Sequence record: PV637039.1 | Length of the DNA stretch: 44,264 nucleotides | Reading direction: 5' to 3' (one strand) | DNA from: Escherichia phage vB_EcoS_PS2 | Program-made: the position numbers and the translations under genes | Part shown: positions 37,647 through 40,229 of the stretch, piece by piece | Layout of the letters: each line of letters opens with the position of its first letter | Position numbering within the stretch: position 1 is the first letter of the stretch | Notes under the pieces: model-generated | Seen by the model: only the letters and a program-made list of their open reading frames with translations | The model's database searches: none | Told to the model about the DNA's origin: nothing

Positions 37647-39911
37647 ATGAGCTTAATTAAATTCGCTGTAACACGACCCGCTAAAAAAGGCGAAAAAGCC
37701 AGGGCGGAAAACTTCCAGATGACCACCGATGAATTTTTCGAATTTATCAATGACGCGAAAGAAATCTCCTCGGTGCATATCAACAAGACCGAGGATAAAG
37801 CCGAGTATGCGCGCCGCAAGCGTAAGGCCGATGGCATCGTGGCGTATACCAGTGACGGCTTACGCCGCAAGACCAGTGCGGTGGACCGCTCGATCCTGTT
37901 CTTCGATATTGACCGTACCGACACCCGCACCCTACGCCGCTGTCGTAAGGCGTTCATTGACGCGGGTCTGGAACACGTATTTCACACCACTACCGGCGAC
38001 CGCCACCCGCTGAAAGGCGGCACGCGTTGCGCCCGTTTCCTGGTGCTCACTGATAAACCAGTACCGGCGGAAGACCTGGGCCGCGTGCAGTACGCGCTGT
38101 TAGACCAACTGGGCCTGTCAGATGTGGACTTCGACGATTGCACGAAAGACACAAACCGCCTGATGTACCTGCCGCACCAGCAATCGGTTATCAAGTGCCA
38201 CTACGGCAAGCGCGCTAATGTGCGTCGTCTGCTTCGCCTGGCGGATAAGCTGGGCGTGGAGAAGGAGGAAGTACGCCGCGAGCTTACCCAGGGCGACGAC
38301 GCAGTGGCGGACGGTATTCTGGACTGGTGCTTCCAGGCAGGATTCGAACCGCTGTCGTCCGGTCGTGGTTATGAAGTGCCGTGCCCGAACGAACATCTGC
38401 ACAGCGGCGAAGGGTCGACGGCTATCATGGTCAAGGATGGCGAGATCCGTTTCAAGTGTATGCACACTGGCAACGAGTGTTGCTCGGAGCTAAATAGACA
38501 CCAGCACCTGGCGCTACGTCTTATCGGGATACCGGACCACCTGAACGTCGAGCCACACAACATGTCACGTAAGCAAATCGCCGCCATCCTCCCAGGGCTG
38601 GACGACGAGGAAGTCGAATCCTTATATGATCATATTGTTGATGCGGTTGGCGACGGCGAAGAATATGGCGTGTGCACCGATGCGGATCTGGATAACGAGC
38701 CGGTTGCGCTGTTCAGTAAGCACGACCCGATCATCGAAGGTCTGATTAACTTTAAATCGACCTGGTATATGGCGGGTGAGTCGAATATCGGTAAGTCTTT
38801 CTATGTGCTGGGGCAGATGGGTGCGGTTGCCGCTGGTATTCCGTTTGGCGGTGCGAAGGTCGTCCAGTCTCATTGCTTCTATTTCGATGCGGAAGGCGGC
38901 GAAGCCTCCAACCAGCGCAAAGAAGCATTGCAGATTAAATATGAGCACGACCTGGACAAGCTGCACATTATAGACCTGCAGTCCCGCGGCTGGGATATCA
39001 CCAGCAAGTCCGGTTTGCGCGAAGTTATCAGCTTTATCAACCGCACCGCTAACGGCGAACCTGTTGGCCTGGTGGCGTTCGACTCACTCAACCAGACTGT
39101 TGCGTTGCGGTCCGCCGAGGCTAAACCGTTTGACGAGAACAACGCCAGCGATATGGGTGAAGTTGTCAAAGCGCTGAAAGCCATTGCGGAAAATACAGGT
39201 GGCAGTGCGGGCGTCATCCACCACCCGGCGAAGGGTGCAAACGGCAGCAGATCCCCGCGCGGGTCCGGTGCGCTTCATGGCGCTGTCGATTCCGCTTTCT
39301 TCCTGGAACAGCCGGACGACAACCAGCCGGGACAACTTAACCTGTACCACGAAAAATCACGTAACGGCATCAAGCAAGCGCCGCGTGGCTTCGTCCTGCT
39401 CAAGTGCAAGGTGGCGGTAGATCTCCGCAAGTCAGAAGCGTTCGCGTCGCACCAGTCCACCAGCACCGGGCCAGACTTCGGCGACGTTGTTGCTGGTTGG
39501 GACGTCAAACCAATTGCGTCCACCCCGCGCGACGAGACTTTATACCTCGTACCGGTCGCCCTGGCACCGTTCGCTATAGAACAGGCGAAGGCCGCGGGCA
39601 AAGCAGCAGTTAAGGAAGAAAACGCCGCCGGTCCGCGCAACGAAAAAGAGAAAGTGCTTTATGCGGCCCTGGAAAAACTGATGGAAGATAACCCGGACCA
39701 TACTGGTTTCAGTAAATCGGCAATCGTCCGCCAGGCGGGACTCGCGAAGGGGGGCACTTCGACGAAGGCAATCGACGATATGGTCGAGCGCGGCGTGATT
39801 GGTTTCTATACAGATCCGCACACCGGGGCCATCTATGGGTCATCGAATTTAGTCATCAAATCGGATATCCCCATAACGATTTCGGCGACCGATGATGACC
39901 TGAAAGATTAA
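37647..39911 (+). CDS. primase-helicase (zinc-binding primase region + RecA-like NTPase)
   Basis: 754 aa; Cys/His cluster CPNEHLH...FKCMHTGNEC; Walker A ESNIGKS and Walker B-like LVAFDSL in the C-terminal half. Confidence 0.75.
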   Translation: MSLIKFAVTRPAKKGEKARAENFQMTTDEFFEFINDAKEISSVHINKTEDKAEYARRKRKADGIVAYTSDGLRRKTSAVDRSILFFDIDRTDTRTLRRCRKAFIDAGLEHVFHTTTGDRHPLKGGTRCARFLVLTDKPVPAEDLGRVQYALLDQLGLSDVDFDDCTKDTNRLMYLPHQQSVIKCHYGKRANVRRLLRLADKLGVEKEEVRRELTQGDDAVADGILDWCFQAGFEPLSSGRGYEVPCPNEHLHSGEGSTAIMVKDGEIRFKCMHTGNECCSELNRHQHLALRLIGIPDHLNVEPHNMSRKQIAAILPGLDDEEVESLYDHIVDAVGDGEEYGVCTDADLDNEPVALFSKHDPIIEGLINFKSTWYMAGESNIGKSFYVLGQMGAVAAGIPFGGAKVVQSHCFYFDAEGGEASNQRKEALQIKYEHDLDKLHIIDLQSRGWDITSKSGLREVISFINRTANGEPVGLVAFDSLNQTVALRSAEAKPFDENNASDMGEVVKALKAIAENTGGSAGVIHHPAKGANGSRSPRGSGALHGAVDSAFFLEQPDDNQPGQLNLYHEKSRNGIKQAPRGFVLLKCKVAVDLRKSEAFASHQSTSTGPDFGDVVAGWDVKPIASTPRDETLYLVPVALAPFAIEQAKAAGKAAVKEENAAGPRNEKEKVLYAALEKLMEDNPDHTGFSKSAIVRQAGLAKGGTSTKAIDDMVERGVIGFYTDPHTGAIYGSSNLVIKSDIPITISATDDDLKD

Positions 39912-40021
39912 ATTTTGCGCGCATTGGTTGCCGATATGGGGATTCCCATATCGCTAAAAGATTAAATTTTGCGCGCATTGGTTGCCATTTTGCGTGTTTT
40001 TAGTCGGTCGCATTGGTTGCC
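39903..40021. repeat. 30-bp direct repeats, palindrome and a third ATTGGTTGCC copy
   Basis: AAAGATTAAATTTTGCGCGCATTGGTTGCC at 39903-39932 and 39957-39986; palindrome GATATGGG-GATT-CCCATATC at 39933-39952; CGCATTGGTTGCC again at 40009-40021. Confidence 0.6.
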
Positions 40022-40071
40022 GTGTAGTGTAAATAGAGTGCATAGTTATGCAATAAAACTGCATAAAGTAA

Positions 40072-40176
40072 GCGGGACAAAAAGCGGGACAGACCAGGGG
40101 CGGGACAAAGCGGGACAGCACCCCGTCCCACCCCCGGATGACGCGGCCTGGAGGGGAGCGGGACAGGCGGGACAAA
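40072..40176. repeat. GCGGGACA repeat array (copy 2)
   Basis: GGGACA hexamers at about 40075, 40086, 40102, 40112, 40161 and 40170 plus complement GTCCCA at 40125; order matches 11980-12086. Confidence 0.65.
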
Positions 40177-40179
40177 CCC

Positions 40180-40229
40180 CAGTCTTTCAGACTAGACGGG
40201 GGTCAACGGCCCCCCCTCGTCTGAGACTG
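40180..40229. other. conserved 49-bp imperfect hairpin element (copy 2)
   Basis: CAGTCTTTCAGACTAGACGGGGGTCAACGGCCCCCCCTCGTCTGAGACTG; differs from copy 1 by one loop base and one extra C. Confidence 0.6.

What the first reader, a model, noticed from the sequence alone, without database searches (positions are those of the whole stretch)
39903..40229. Complex non-coding region after the primase-helicase: direct repeats, palindrome, second GGGACA array and hairpin (candidate origin)
About 535 bp without a convincing ORF lies between the primase-helicase stop (39911) and the next gene (40446). It contains two 30-bp direct repeats 54 bp apart, a perfect palindrome GATATGGG-N4-CCCATATC, three ATTGGTTGCC copies, then the duplicated GCGGGACA array and 49-bp hairpin. 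Iterons plus palindromes next to replication genes are the usual signature of a phage origin.
Basis: partly seen in the sequence, partly recalled or inferred. Interest (0 to 1): 0.65.

Follow-up and report, generated by a model that had tools for sequence, protein, structure and literature searches.

The report
Iteron replication origin beside phage helicase-primase
The non-coding stretch after this coliphage's helicase-primase gene is most likely a replication origin: short GCGGGACA repeats plus a hairpin that the enzyme's own tail domain probably recognises. A known kind of element, but here duplicated inside the tail genes and shared by many uncultured phages.

Summary
The window is a nearly complete Dhillonvirus genome (HK578/SSL-2009a/SO-1 group).

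- **Dispensable:** the 54-bp unit with the first direct repeat and the palindrome is absent from 7 of 14 relatives.
- **Genome-wide signal:** ATTGGTTGC is a promoter/operator motif, not an origin-specific iteron.
- **Conserved core (40025-40236):** an AT-rich patch, six GCGGGACA iterons and a 50-nt hairpin. It is duplicated at 11948-12140, upstream of the tape-measure gene.

Three comparisons support an origin:
- Unrelated viral contigs picked only by the GCGGGACA motif carry the array at the 3' end of a RepA-like (AAA_25) helicase-primase gene.
- In 39 of 77 loci picked only by that protein, the stop-codon window holds the locus's densest short repeat, and the repeated word differs between lineages.
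- Among 44-69% identical relatives the iteron changes (GTGTGGCA, GTGTGCCA, GGTGCCA, GGGAT, GGGGAGA) together with the enzyme's predicted winged-helix C-terminal domain. In three lineages it changes identically in both arrays.

Best reading: an initiator-plus-iteron origin like SaPI Rep-ori or P4 alpha ori/crr. No experiment supports this yet. Novelty: new member of a known kind.

The parts
37647..39911 (+). Helicase-primase gene (754 aa). It has an N-terminal primase-like region with a zinc ribbon, a RepA/RSF1010-like AAA_25 helicase core (residues 357-531) and a C-terminal winged-helix-like domain (residues ~666-737). Proposed initiator.
   Evidence: Pfam AAA_25 E=2e-19. PHROG 3228 replicative helicase-primase. 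AF2 with a 40-sequence alignment: pLDDT 78, and the CTD has H-b-H-H-b-b topology. Foldseek top hit is RSF1010 RepA 1nlf/1g8y, E~1e-9, TM 0.67-0.71.
39900..39953 (+). Polymorphic 54-bp unit. It holds copy 1 of the 33-nt direct repeat (including the stop codon and one CGCATTGGTTGCC box) plus the palindrome CGATATGGG-GATT-CCCATATCG (39932-39953). Probably dispensable.
   Evidence: Present in 7 of 14 aligned Dhillonviruses and absent from SSL-2009a, HK578, SO-1, EK99P-1, YD-2008.s, L039 and L041. Palindrome fold z = -4.1.
39974..40021 (+). Two invariant CGCATTGGTTGCC boxes (39974-39986 and 40009-40021). They are copies of the genome-wide ATTGGTTGC promoter/operator motif and flank the origin core on its 5' side.
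   Evidence: Invariant in 14 genomes. Motif distribution across the genome. Equivalent boxes flank the arrays in relatives, and in St162 as TGTTGGCTGC.
40025..40071 (+). AT-rich segment (about 72% A+T at 40030-40069). It contains GCATAGTTATGCA (GAATAGTTATGCA in most relatives), the inverted repeat TTATGCA / TGCATAA (40046-40052 / 40060-40066) and TGCATAAA. Candidate DNA-unwinding element.
   Evidence: Composition profile: GC 0.275. The GAATAGTTATGCA-type block is kept in the same position in 44-69% identical relatives, including St162.
40072..40129 (+). Iteron block 1. Four direct GCGGGACA at 40072, 40084, 40100 and 40110 (spacings 12, 16 and 10 nt), then an inverted partial copy GTCCC at 40125-40129.
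   Evidence: All four are invariant in 14 genomes.
40130..40157 (+). Variable GC-rich spacer between the two iteron blocks.
   Evidence: Least conserved part of the unit, both between copies A and B and between genomes.
40158..40174 (+). Iteron block 2. Two direct GCGGGACA at 40158 and 40167.
40180..40229 (.). Conserved 50-nt imperfect GC-rich hairpin (CAGTCTTTCAGACTAGACGGGGG ... CCCCCTCGTCTGAGACTG). Proposed structural or priming (ssi-like) element of the origin.
   Evidence: DNA fold -13.8 kcal/mol, z = -3.95 on the + strand and z = -4.0 on the - strand. Stems are invariant and the loop varies. It is kept in relatives whose iterons differ. No T-run follows it on either strand.
40227..40236 (+). 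CTGCATAAAA, a copy of the TGCATAA(A) motif that brackets both arrays.
   Evidence: 7 of 14 TGCATAA sites in the window lie in regions A and B.
40293..40306 (-). Inverted TCGCATTGGTTGCC box. It is 14/14 complementary to 40008-40021, so the core is bracketed by inverted boxes.
   Evidence: I4. Invariant.
40384..40431 (+). Promoter-like site for the downstream operon. -35 TTGCAT (40389-40394), 17-nt spacer, -10 TAGATT (40412-40417). The hexamers are embedded in two ATTGGTTGCA boxes, and the second extends into the dyad TTGGTTGCACACCAA.
   Evidence: Read from the sequence. The same architecture occurs at 6228-6260 on the - strand. Conserved. It falls below the threshold of the simple consensus scan.
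11824..11947 (+). Region A, upstream part. Two palindromic iteron pairs (11826-11862 and 11905-11941: GCGGGACA..GTCCCG..TGTCCCGC), each followed by TGCATAAAC.
11948..12140 (+). Region A, duplicate of the origin core. It has an AT-rich start with TGCATAAA, iterons at 11984, 11995, 12010 and 12020, an inverted copy at 12035, iterons at 12070 and 12078, and the same hairpin at 12091-12139. It lies between the tail-chaperone genes and the tape-measure gene (12208).
   Evidence: Alignment with region B. Hairpin fold z = -3.7. Present in nearly all 158 Dhillonvirus records (332 places). Its iterons co-vary with those of region B in three lineages.

Best explanation
The core of the region (40025-40236) is a replication origin of the initiator-plus-iteron type, and its cognate initiator is the helicase-primase encoded immediately upstream.

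Proposed mechanism (inferred, not shown):
1. The enzyme's C-terminal winged-helix domain binds the six GCGGGACA iterons.
2. Several protomers are thereby concentrated, and the RepA-like hexameric helicase assembles next to the AT-rich patch (40025-40071) and opens it.
3. The adjacent conserved hairpin extrudes or is exposed as single-stranded DNA. It serves as a structural or priming signal for the enzyme's own primase domain, much as the ssi hairpins of RSF1010 serve RepB'.
4. The phage's T7-like polymerase and gp2.5-like SSB take over.

The near-identical unit at 11948-12140 (region A, with extra palindromic iteron pairs at 11826-11941) is a second binding locus for the same protein. It is either a second origin or a cis-acting partner like P4 crr.

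The CGCATTGGTTGCC boxes that bracket the core belong to a separate, genome-wide promoter/operator system and probably couple transcription control to the origin. The 54-bp repeat with the palindrome is a recent, dispensable insertion.
For: 1. Motif to protein. An exact scan of IMG/VR for GCGGGACAAAGCGGGACA returned, besides Dhillonvirus copies A and B, 13 unrelated array-bearing contig groups. In 11 of them the CGGGAC array starts at or within the 3' end of a gene for an AAA_25 helicase. That helicase is fused to either a Toprim or a Prim-Pol primase and is 19-26% identical to the window protein.

2. Protein to motif. Of 77 loci selected only by a protein profile, 39 have their highest 6-mer repeat count in the 500 nt at the stop codon; chance would give about 6%. 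The repeated word is lineage specific: CGGGAC, AGGACA, CGGACA, CGTTGCA, GTGACA, TGTAAA and others. It tracks a C-terminal helix motif.

3. Close relatives keep the whole architecture but swap the iteron together with CTD helix residues:
- window/P0012/P0010 (FSKSAIxxQAG): GCGGGACA
- P0011/P0007 (FSRRAIL): GTGTGGCA
- P0008: GTGTGCCA
- P0013: GGTGCCA
- St162: GGGGAGA
The iterons of P0010 and P0007 were predicted from the CTD before their DNA was fetched, and both predictions held.

4. Arrays A and B carry the same variant iteron within each of three lineages: GGGAC, GTGTGGCA and GGGAT.

5. The AF2 model gives the CTD winged-helix topology (pLDDT 70-86), and the helicase core matches RSF1010 RepA.

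6. The anatomy is typical of an origin: an AT-rich patch (GC 0.275) beside GC-rich iterons, plus a stable hairpin. All iterons are invariant in 14 genomes while the spacer varies.

7. Precedents. SaPI Rep/PriRep5 use a C-terminal winged helix to bind 6-12 short iterons lying immediately downstream of rep, and that is the ori (PMC9371898). The pRN1 origin is a stem-loop 3' of its primase-helicase gene, P4 alpha binds origin repeats through a winged helix, and RSF1010 combines iterons with ssi hairpins (PMC4234260).
Against: - There is no experimental or marker-frequency evidence. Everything rests on comparative inference.
- GC skew does not mark the site.
- The arrangement is not universal. The 28-35% identical helicase-primases of LotteLoewe, fFiEco02 and SETP13 are followed by a terminator or another gene, not an array.
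- The CTD of the distant GCGGGACA-associated proteins (FY..KKAFQRA type) is not detectably homologous to the Dhillonvirus CTD: HMM no hit, hhalign probability 0.5%. Why the same octamer is shared is unexplained.
- Region B iterons nearly all point one way. SaPI origins have opposed sets around the AT-rich centre.
- An origin copy inside the late tail operon is unusual.
- Binding by the CTD is inferred from co-variation only. A regulatory (operator) role for the same binding would give the same comparative pattern.
Confidence: 0.7

Rival explanations
1. The arrays are operator or regulatory sites rather than origins. The helicase-primase CTD, or another lineage-specific DNA-binding protein, binds them to control transcription: autoregulating the replication operon at B and gating read-through into the tape-measure and tail genes at A.
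For: - Region A sits inside the late operon between the chaperone and tape-measure genes.
- Both arrays are bracketed by promoter/operator-type boxes and TGCATAAA motifs.
- Co-variation with the CTD shows a binding relationship, not what the binding is for.
Against: - The bound protein is a replicative helicase-primase.
- Characterised elements with the same gene-adjacent iteron layout are origins (PMC9371898, PMC4234260).
- The AT-rich patch and the conserved hairpin have no obvious role in an operator.
- St162 and the metagenomic relatives have one array at the gene's 3' end and none at late genes.
Confidence: 0.14
2. One reading: the 30-bp direct repeats, the palindrome and the ATTGGTTGCC copies are themselves the origin iterons.
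For: They are real repeats located next to a replication gene. Two CGCATTGGTTGCC boxes plus an inverted one are invariant and bracket the core in all relatives.
Against: - The first repeat and the palindrome are missing from half of the genus.
- ATTGGTTGC occurs 15 times across the genome, mainly at promoters.
- ATTGGTTGC stays the same in lineages whose helicase-primase CTD and iterons have changed, so it does not co-vary with the initiator.
Confidence: 0.06
3. The ~175-nt unit is transcribed into a structured RNA: a small RNA, a leader or antitermination element, or a terminator. The repeats would be RNA protein-binding motifs and the hairpin the RNA's 3' end.
For: - Two same-strand copies, each preceded by a -10-like TGCATAAA(g/c)T and ending in a strong hairpin.
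- GGA-containing repeats are reminiscent of protein-sponge RNAs (own knowledge).
Against: - No Rfam family matches at gathering or relaxed threshold.
- The whole-unit RNA fold is not unusual: z = -1.4.
- No U-run follows the hairpin on either strand.
- Iterons occur in both orientations in region A and in other phages.
- The hairpin is equally stable on both strands and shows no compensatory changes within the genus.
Confidence: 0.05
4. The unit is a selfish or structural repeat unrelated to replication: a MITE-like mobile repeat, a recombination hotspot, or a packaging (pac) signal.
For: - The unit exists in two copies.
- In region B it is bracketed by 14-nt inverted repeats (I4).
- One unrelated contig (L012) has GCGGGACA arrays just upstream of a small terminase gene.
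- Region A is an insertion hotspot: two extra genes sit there in L154.
Against: - Only two copies exist, at fixed conserved positions, in over 150 genomes.
- Region A lacks the inverted boxes.
- No array lies near this phage's terminase genes at 56-2013.
- Co-variation with the helicase-primase CTD is not expected for a mobile repeat or a pac site.
Confidence: 0.04

Closest known systems
SaPI (staphylococcal pathogenicity island) Rep / PriRep5 with its ori
   Same: A self-contained initiator-helicase, fused to a primase in PriRep5, has a C-terminal winged-helix domain that recognises short repeats. Six to twelve iterons lie immediately downstream of the gene together with an AT-rich segment. 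Iteron sequence is specific to each Rep type (PMC9371898).
   Different: SaPI Reps are superfamily-3 AAA+ helicases, whereas this core is RecA-fold and RepA/RSF1010-like. SaPI iterons face each other across a central AT-rich region; here region B's iterons are almost all direct and the AT-rich patch lies to one side. SaPIs have one ori; here there are two co-evolving arrays and a conserved long hairpin.
Satellite phage P4 alpha protein with ori and crr
   Same: One polypeptide combines primase, helicase and a C-terminal winged-helix origin-binding domain (PMC4234260). From my own knowledge (Ziegelin and Lanka; Flensburg and Calendar), the octamer type-I iterons (TGTTCACC) occur at two separated loci, ori and the cis replication region crr, and both are needed. 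That is the closest parallel to regions B and A.
   Different: P4 alpha has an SF3 helicase and a Toprim primase, and no sequence similarity was found here. P4 ori and crr are about 4.5 kb apart near the alpha gene. Here the second locus is 16/28 kb away inside the tail operon. Whether A is required in cis is unknown.
RSF1010/IncQ oriV with RepA, RepB' and RepC
   Same: The best structural match of the helicase core is RSF1010 RepA. IncQ oriV combines iterons, an AT-rich stretch and hairpins (ssiA/ssiB) where the dedicated primase starts (PMC4234260), which matches the iteron, AT-rich and hairpin anatomy here.
   Different: In RSF1010 the three functions are separate proteins, and the iterons are 20-mers bound by RepC. 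Here one polypeptide would do all three, and the iterons are 8-mers. No test of priming at the hairpin was possible.
pRN1 ORF904 and Bordetella phage BIP-1 type origins
   Same: The origin lies just 3' of the gene for a primase-helicase with a winged-helix CTD, and a long stem-loop is the essential element (PMC4234260).
   Different: Those origins have no iterons and use SF3 helicases.
Sodalis phage SO-1 GenBank annotation (NC_013600)
   Same: The record marks exactly these two loci as repeat_region 'region A' (11214-11597) and 'region B' (40178-40657): 'direct, inverted and palindromic repeat sequences; sequence similarity with region B; possible ...'.
   Different: I found no paper analysing the repeats.

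Membership tests
Iteron-type origin bound by its own initiator-helicase (SaPI Rep-ori / P4 alpha-ori kind) | Cluster of several copies of a short (5-8 nt or longer) repeat in non-coding DNA | tested here: met
   Six GCGGGACA within 103 nt. 17 occur in the genome against 1.9 expected, and 14 of those lie in two clusters.
Iteron-type origin bound by its own initiator-helicase (SaPI Rep-ori / P4 alpha-ori kind) | Array lies next to (3' of) the initiator gene | tested here: met
   The first iteron is 161 nt after the stop codon (107 nt in genomes without the 54-bp insert). The same position is seen in 11 of 13 unrelated motif-selected groups and in 39 of 77 protein-selected loci.
Iteron-type origin bound by its own initiator-helicase (SaPI Rep-ori / P4 alpha-ori kind) | Adjacent AT-rich, easily melted segment | tested here: met
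   40030-40069 has GC 0.275 against 0.60-0.78 in the iteron block and 0.55 genome-wide.
Iteron-type origin bound by its own initiator-helicase (SaPI Rep-ori / P4 alpha-ori kind) | Initiator carries a sequence-specific DNA-binding (winged-helix) domain | tested here: inconclusive
   The AF2 model (40-sequence alignment) gives residues 666-737 an H-b-H-H-b-b topology at pLDDT 70-86. No sequence match to a known winged-helix family or solved structure was found. A fold search of the isolated domain was not possible.
Iteron-type origin bound by its own initiator-helicase (SaPI Rep-ori / P4 alpha-ori kind) | Iteron sequence co-varies with the initiator's DNA-binding domain among relatives | tested here: met
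   Five iteron types track five CTD variants among 44-69% identical proteins, and two blind predictions were correct. The same trend holds in the distant family.
Iteron-type origin bound by its own initiator-helicase (SaPI Rep-ori / P4 alpha-ori kind) | Opposed iteron sets on both sides of the AT-rich centre (SaPI layout) | tested here: not met
   Region B has six direct copies and one partial inverted copy, all on one side of the AT-rich patch. Region A and many metagenomic arrays do have opposed copies.
Iteron-type origin bound by its own initiator-helicase (SaPI Rep-ori / P4 alpha-ori kind) | Initiator binds the iterons, and the fragment supports initiation of replication | not testable with these tools
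   Needs EMSA or footprinting, marker-frequency sequencing and an origin-cloning assay.
P4-type two-locus origin (ori + crr) | Same iteron present at two separated loci of one genome | tested here: met
   Regions A and B share the iteron in the window and in three diverged lineages with three different iterons.
P4-type two-locus origin (ori + crr) | Both loci required in cis for replication | not testable with these tools
   Requires deletion genetics. St162 manages with one array.
Lambda-type origin (iterons inside the initiator gene) | Iterons embedded in the initiator's coding sequence | tested here: not met
   In the window the arrays lie outside the ORF. Only in L038 and L049 does the called ORF run through the array.
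Structured RNA or intrinsic terminator | Match to a curated RNA family, or a hairpin followed by a U-run, or compensatory base changes | tested here: not met
   Rfam gives nothing at gathering threshold and only noise at E<1. The terminator scan finds nothing at the hairpin. Whole-unit RNA fold z = -1.4. Stems are invariant within the genus, so there is no covariation.

The most novel reading that the evidence does not exclude
Regions A and B form one coupled two-site system. The helicase-primase occupies both co-evolving arrays, either looping them together or firing them as paired origins as in P4 ori/crr. The copy lodged between the tail-chaperone and tape-measure genes would also tie late tail-gene expression to replication.

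More broadly, the RepA-like (SF4) helicase-primases with an exchangeable winged-helix tail would be a large, so far uncatalogued class of self-loading initiators. Their adjacent iteron arrays would then pinpoint replication origins in many uncultured phages.
Probability: 0.2. Interest if true: 0.65.

Novelty: new member of a known kind. Interest (0 to 1): 0.45.

Why it matters
Dhillonviruses are common coliphages, used in the BASEL collection and in many defence-system studies, yet I found no published description of their replication origin.

If this reading is right, it provides:
- a concrete origin and initiator-DNA recognition code (iteron versus CTD helix) that can be tested with simple binding and swap experiments;
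- a practical rule for annotating origins in metagenomic phages: look for the densest short repeat at the 3' end of an AAA_25 helicase-primase gene;
- a natural example of two co-evolving initiator-binding loci, one of them inside a structural operon.

It also warns assemblers and annotators. The arrays break assemblies, and they attract spurious small ORF calls.

Tried and rejected
- **GC skew.** It follows gene orientation, with turning points at ~24 and ~37 kb, so it says nothing about 40.1 kb.
- **Simple promoter and terminator scans.** No consensus promoter was found. The only terminator-like hits were inside the coding region or on the minus strand of region A.
- **Rfam.** Nothing at gathering or relaxed thresholds. 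The RNA fold of the whole unit was unremarkable.
- **Literature searches.** Searches for Dhillonvirus promoters or origins, SO-1, HK578, and the motif as text found primer noise only and no analysis of these repeats.
- **The search for related loci.** It failed with the 10-sequence alignment because no stretch was conserved enough. A 5-sequence subset worked.
- **Protein search with the C-terminal 195 aa alone.** Nothing found. The full-length query worked.
- **AF2 of the CTD without an alignment.** Useless, pLDDT 35.
- **Homology between the two CTD types.** HMM and hhalign tests between the Dhillonvirus CTD and the FY..KKAFQRA CTD of distant GCGGGACA-associated helicases were negative. I therefore dropped the simple claim 'same domain, same motif'.
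- **T7-type primase recognition of the GTC in TGTCCC.** Rejected, because the associated proteins carry different primase types (Toprim or Prim-Pol) while the motif tracks the C-terminus.
- **DnaA-box or IHF reading of TTATGCA/TGCATAA.** Considered by eye only. The DnaA-box match was 7 of 9, no IHF core was seen, and I did not pursue it.
- **pac-site idea.** Rejected for this phage, because no array lies near the terminase genes.

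
Full report
**What the window is.** The 1.4 kb around the finding matches 159 phage records at 86-91% identity. Almost all are Dhillonvirus: SECphi18, SSL-2009a, HK578, EP23 and Sodalis phage SO-1. The gene order of the window equals that of SO-1 and SSL-2009a:
- terminase at the left end
- head and tail genes to ~24 kb
- a minus-strand early/replication block from 24 to 37 kb
- a plus-strand block from ~37.3 kb that starts with a small HTH gene and the helicase-primase (37647..39911)

The window is therefore an almost complete genome, and the finding is the 534-nt gap after the helicase-primase gene.

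**Checking the observation.**
- 33-nt direct repeats at 39900-39932 and 39954-39986
- the palindrome CGATATGGG-GATT-CCCATATCG at 39932-39953
- ATTGGTTGCC at 39923, 39977 and 40012
- six GCGGGACA at 40072-40174
- a hairpin at 40180-40229

GCGGGACA occurs 17 times in the genome against 1.9 expected (0 of 100 shuffles), and 14 of the 17 lie in two clusters. The hairpin and the palindrome are both about four standard deviations more stable than shuffled sequence. The array plus hairpin is a ~195-nt copy of 11948-12140, which lies between the tail-chaperone genes and the tape-measure gene. Nearly all 158 Dhillonvirus records carry both copies (332 places). The SO-1 GenBank record already flags the two loci as repeat 'region A' and 'region B', with a truncated note 'possible ...'. 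I found no paper that analyses them.

**The four listed features are not equivalent.** I aligned region B from 14 Dhillonviruses.
- The first direct repeat and the palindrome form a 54-bp unit present in 7 genomes. It is absent from the other 7, which include HK578, SSL-2009a and SO-1. It is therefore a recent duplication/insertion and cannot be essential.
- ATTGGTTGC is a genome-wide signal. There are 15 exact copies, nearly all in the small intergenic gaps and often in pairs.
- At 40384-40431, and again at 6228-6260 on the minus strand, two boxes embed a sigma-70-like promoter (TTGCAT-17 nt-TAGATT and TTGCAC-18 nt-TATATT). The second box overlaps the start site as the dyad TTGGTTGCACACCAA.
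- I read this motif as a promoter/operator signal. The small HTH protein encoded just upstream of the helicase-primase in all relatives is a candidate binder, but I did not test that.
- The elements invariant in all genomes are the six iterons, the hairpin stems, an AT-rich block with GAATAGTTATGCA...TGCATAAA, and the boxes that bracket them. The spacer between the two iteron blocks varies.

**Evidence 1: from the motif to a protein.** An exact scan of IMG/VR for GCGGGACAAAGCGGGACA returned 56 loci. Apart from Dhillonvirus copies A and B, there were 13 unrelated contig groups with arrays of direct and inverted CGGGAC plus a GC-rich palindrome.
- In 11 groups the array begins at, or just inside, the 3' end of a gene whose product shares only the AAA_25 helicase core with the window protein (19-26% identity). 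The N-terminal primase is Toprim in some and Prim-Pol in others.
- One further group has a Prim-Pol/DUF5906 primase-helicase gene about 650 nt upstream of the array.
- One group (L012) has the arrays beside a small terminase gene.
- The loci were chosen without reference to any protein, so this is an unbiased association.

**Evidence 2: from the protein to a motif.** I fetched 80 loci using only a profile of such helicases.
- In 39 of 77 testable loci, the 500 nt around the stop codon hold the highest count of any 6-mer in the whole locus. About 6% would be expected by chance.
- The word differs by lineage: CGGGAC, AGGACA, TGGACA, CGGACA, CGTTGCA, CGGTGCA, GTGACA, TGTAAA, GCGTGAC and others.
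- It follows a C-terminal helix motif. FY..KKAFQRA goes with CGGGAC, SQRTANRxIKKLID with AGGACA, RKQRVRRALEAL with CGTTGCA, and RKQHAKRALESL with CGGTGCA.

**Evidence 3: close relatives.** Full-length homologues at 44-69% identity keep the same layout after the stop codon: boxes, GAATAGTTATGCA, iterons, spacer, two iterons, hairpin, then the promoter. The iteron itself changes:

| Protein | Identity to window | Iteron |
|---|---|---|
| P0012, P0010 | 68% | GCGGGACA |
| P0011, P0007 | 67-69% | GTGTGGCA |
| P0008 | 68% | GTGTGCCA |
| P0013 | 66% | GGTGCCA |
| P0017 | 46% | GGGAT(C/A) |
| Salmonella phage St162 | 44% | GGGGAGA |

- These changes go with substitutions in two helices of the C-terminal domain: FSKSAI(V/L)(R/K)QAG against FSRRAIL.., FSARQIM.., FSKAAIM.. 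and FAPADVI...
- I predicted the iterons of P0010 and P0007 from those residues before fetching their DNA, and both predictions were right.
- An AF2 model built on 40 homologues (pLDDT 78) gives residues 666-737 the helix-strand-helix-helix-strand-strand order of a winged helix.
- The helicase core superposes best on RSF1010 RepA.

**Evidence 4: the two arrays co-evolve.**
- In the GTGTGGCA lineage, one 27.6-kb contig starts in an array just upstream of the tape-measure gene and ends in the array after the helicase-primase gene. The first 27 nt of the contig recur in the last 29 nt. Both arrays carry GTGTGGCA and no GGGAC.
- In the P0012 lineage both arrays carry GGGAC. In the P0017 lineage both carry GGGAT/ATCCC.
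- St162 has only the array after the helicase-primase gene, so region B is probably the ancestral site and region A a later copy.
- Two loci 16/28 kb apart that change their repeat in step with each other and with one protein domain must both be binding sites for that domain. This is the strongest argument that region A is functional and not a passive duplicate.

**Mechanism.**
- Shown: the anatomy (AT-rich patch at GC 0.275, GC-rich iterons, stable hairpin), the linkage to the gene, and the co-variation.
- Inferred: the CTD binds the iterons; this nucleates assembly of the RepA-like hexamer beside the AT-rich patch; the hairpin then acts as a structural or priming signal.
- The hairpin keeps its sequence where the iterons change. 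That fits recognition by a conserved part of the enzyme or a purely structural role.
- It lacks a U-run and is equally stable on both strands, which argues against a terminator.
- Published parallels: SaPI Rep/PriRep5, where a winged-helix CTD binds 6-12 iterons immediately downstream of rep (PMC9371898); and pRN1 (stem-loop 3' of the primase-helicase gene), P4 alpha (winged helix on origin repeats) and RSF1010 (iterons plus ssi hairpins), all discussed in PMC4234260. From my own knowledge, P4's ori/crr pair is the closest parallel to regions B and A.

**What weakens the case.**
- Nothing here measures replication.
- The layout is not universal. Kagunavirus and Jerseyvirus relatives at 28-35% identity have no array after the gene.
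- The CTD of the distant GCGGGACA-associated helicases is not detectably related to the Dhillonvirus CTD. The shared octamer is unexplained: either a very old common origin or convergence. The words across both families do share a GGAC/GGGA theme.
- Region B lacks the opposed iteron sets of SaPI origins.
- A purely regulatory role for the same protein-DNA contacts would give the same comparative signal, and region A's place in the late operon keeps that rival alive.

**Verdict.** The origin interpretation is supported for the GCGGGACA array, the AT-rich patch and the hairpin. It is not supported for the 30-bp repeats, the palindrome or the ATTGGTTGCC boxes. I place it as a new member of the known kind 'iteron origin beside its self-loading initiator-helicase'. 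Two less usual traits stand out: a RepA-like rather than SF3 helicase, and a second co-evolving array inside the tail operon. Confidence in the origin reading is 0.7 and interest is moderate (0.45).

Noticed in passing
window 6228-6250(-), 22343(-), 25264-25283(+/-), 26936-26961(-), 29506-29526(-), 34076-34100(+), 37111(+), 40384-40431(+), 40934(-), 42678-42709(-): ATTGGTTGC(A/C) is a genome-wide motif in intergenic gaps. It often occurs in pairs or as the dyad TTGGTTGCA-N4-TGCAACCAA, and it overlaps the -35/-10 hexamers of sigma-70-like promoters, so it looks like a phage-specific promoter/operator code. The small HTH gene 37307..37636 (PHROG 9366, annotated 'transposase'; weak Sigma70_r4_2/HTH_23 hits in relatives) precedes the helicase-primase in every relative and is a candidate binder.
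   Followed up: partly
window 11893, 11971, 12185, 12202, 40046(-), 40060, 40228: A third repeat, (C)TGCATAA(A), is concentrated around both arrays (7 of 14 genomic sites) and brackets each iteron-hairpin unit. Its function is unknown. Possibilities are a -10-like element, a host-factor site, or part of the unwinding region.
   Followed up: no
window 39867-39878 versus 39932-39943: One arm of the polymorphic palindrome is 92% complementary to coding sequence 53 nt upstream in the helicase-primase gene. This hints that the 54-bp insert arose by a template-switch or hairpin-mediated duplication.
   Followed up: no
L153 1-30 and L148 3842-3870 (contig logan ERR11172925_9173): A 27.6-kb metagenomic contig begins in the array upstream of the tape-measure gene and ends in the array after the helicase-primase gene. 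Its first 27 nt recur within the last 29 nt, so the repeated origin units break short-read assemblies at exactly these points.
   Followed up: yes
L154 353-1101: In a 59-68% identical relative, two minus-strand genes with their own TTGGTTGCA-box promoter are inserted between the tail-chaperone genes and region A. The site appears to be a hotspot for extra genes.
   Followed up: no
L005, L009, L010, L014, L016, L021, L027, L028, L037, L047, L048, L051: A separate, abundant contig group carries a single GCGGGACAAAGCGGGACA pair right after a TTGACA-like hexamer. It lies between a DUF4417 gene and a small unannotated ORF that precedes an SNF2-helicase gene, and there is no array and no AAA_25 helicase nearby. 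This may be chance or an unrelated use of the motif.
   Followed up: partly
L012 5470-5840 and L056 3700-3860: Two AT-rich contigs have GCGGGACA arrays that are not at an AAA_25 helicase gene. In L012 two opposed arrays flank an AT-rich stretch upstream of a small terminase gene. In L056 the array lies ~650 nt after a Prim-Pol/DUF5906 (SF3-type) primase-helicase gene.
   Followed up: partly
window 29812..33000(-) with nested ORF 30758..31516(-): The SO-1 record says its DNA polymerase gene 'contains type I self-splicing intron' with an HNH endonuclease. In the window the polymerase ORF is an uninterrupted 1062 codons with a nested 252-codon ORF, and Rfam finds no group I intron at gathering threshold. 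The annotation may need revisiting (an intein or an overlapping gene?).
   Followed up: no
window 33252-33456(-): A 54-nt tandem repeat (2.3 copies, 84% match) and TCG/TCGTCA runs lie inside the gp2.5-like SSB gene. They encode a repetitive acidic/basic C-terminal region.
   Followed up: no
C-termini of the helicase-primases (window residues 747-754; L004, L022, L023, L025, L060): Many of these proteins end in a short acidic tail (..TDDDLKD, ..SDDD, ..GDDE, ..YDER). This recalls the acidic C-terminal tails of T7 gp4 and gp2.5 that contact the polymerase (own knowledge), and the phage also encodes a T7-like polymerase and a gp2.5-like SSB.
   Followed up: no
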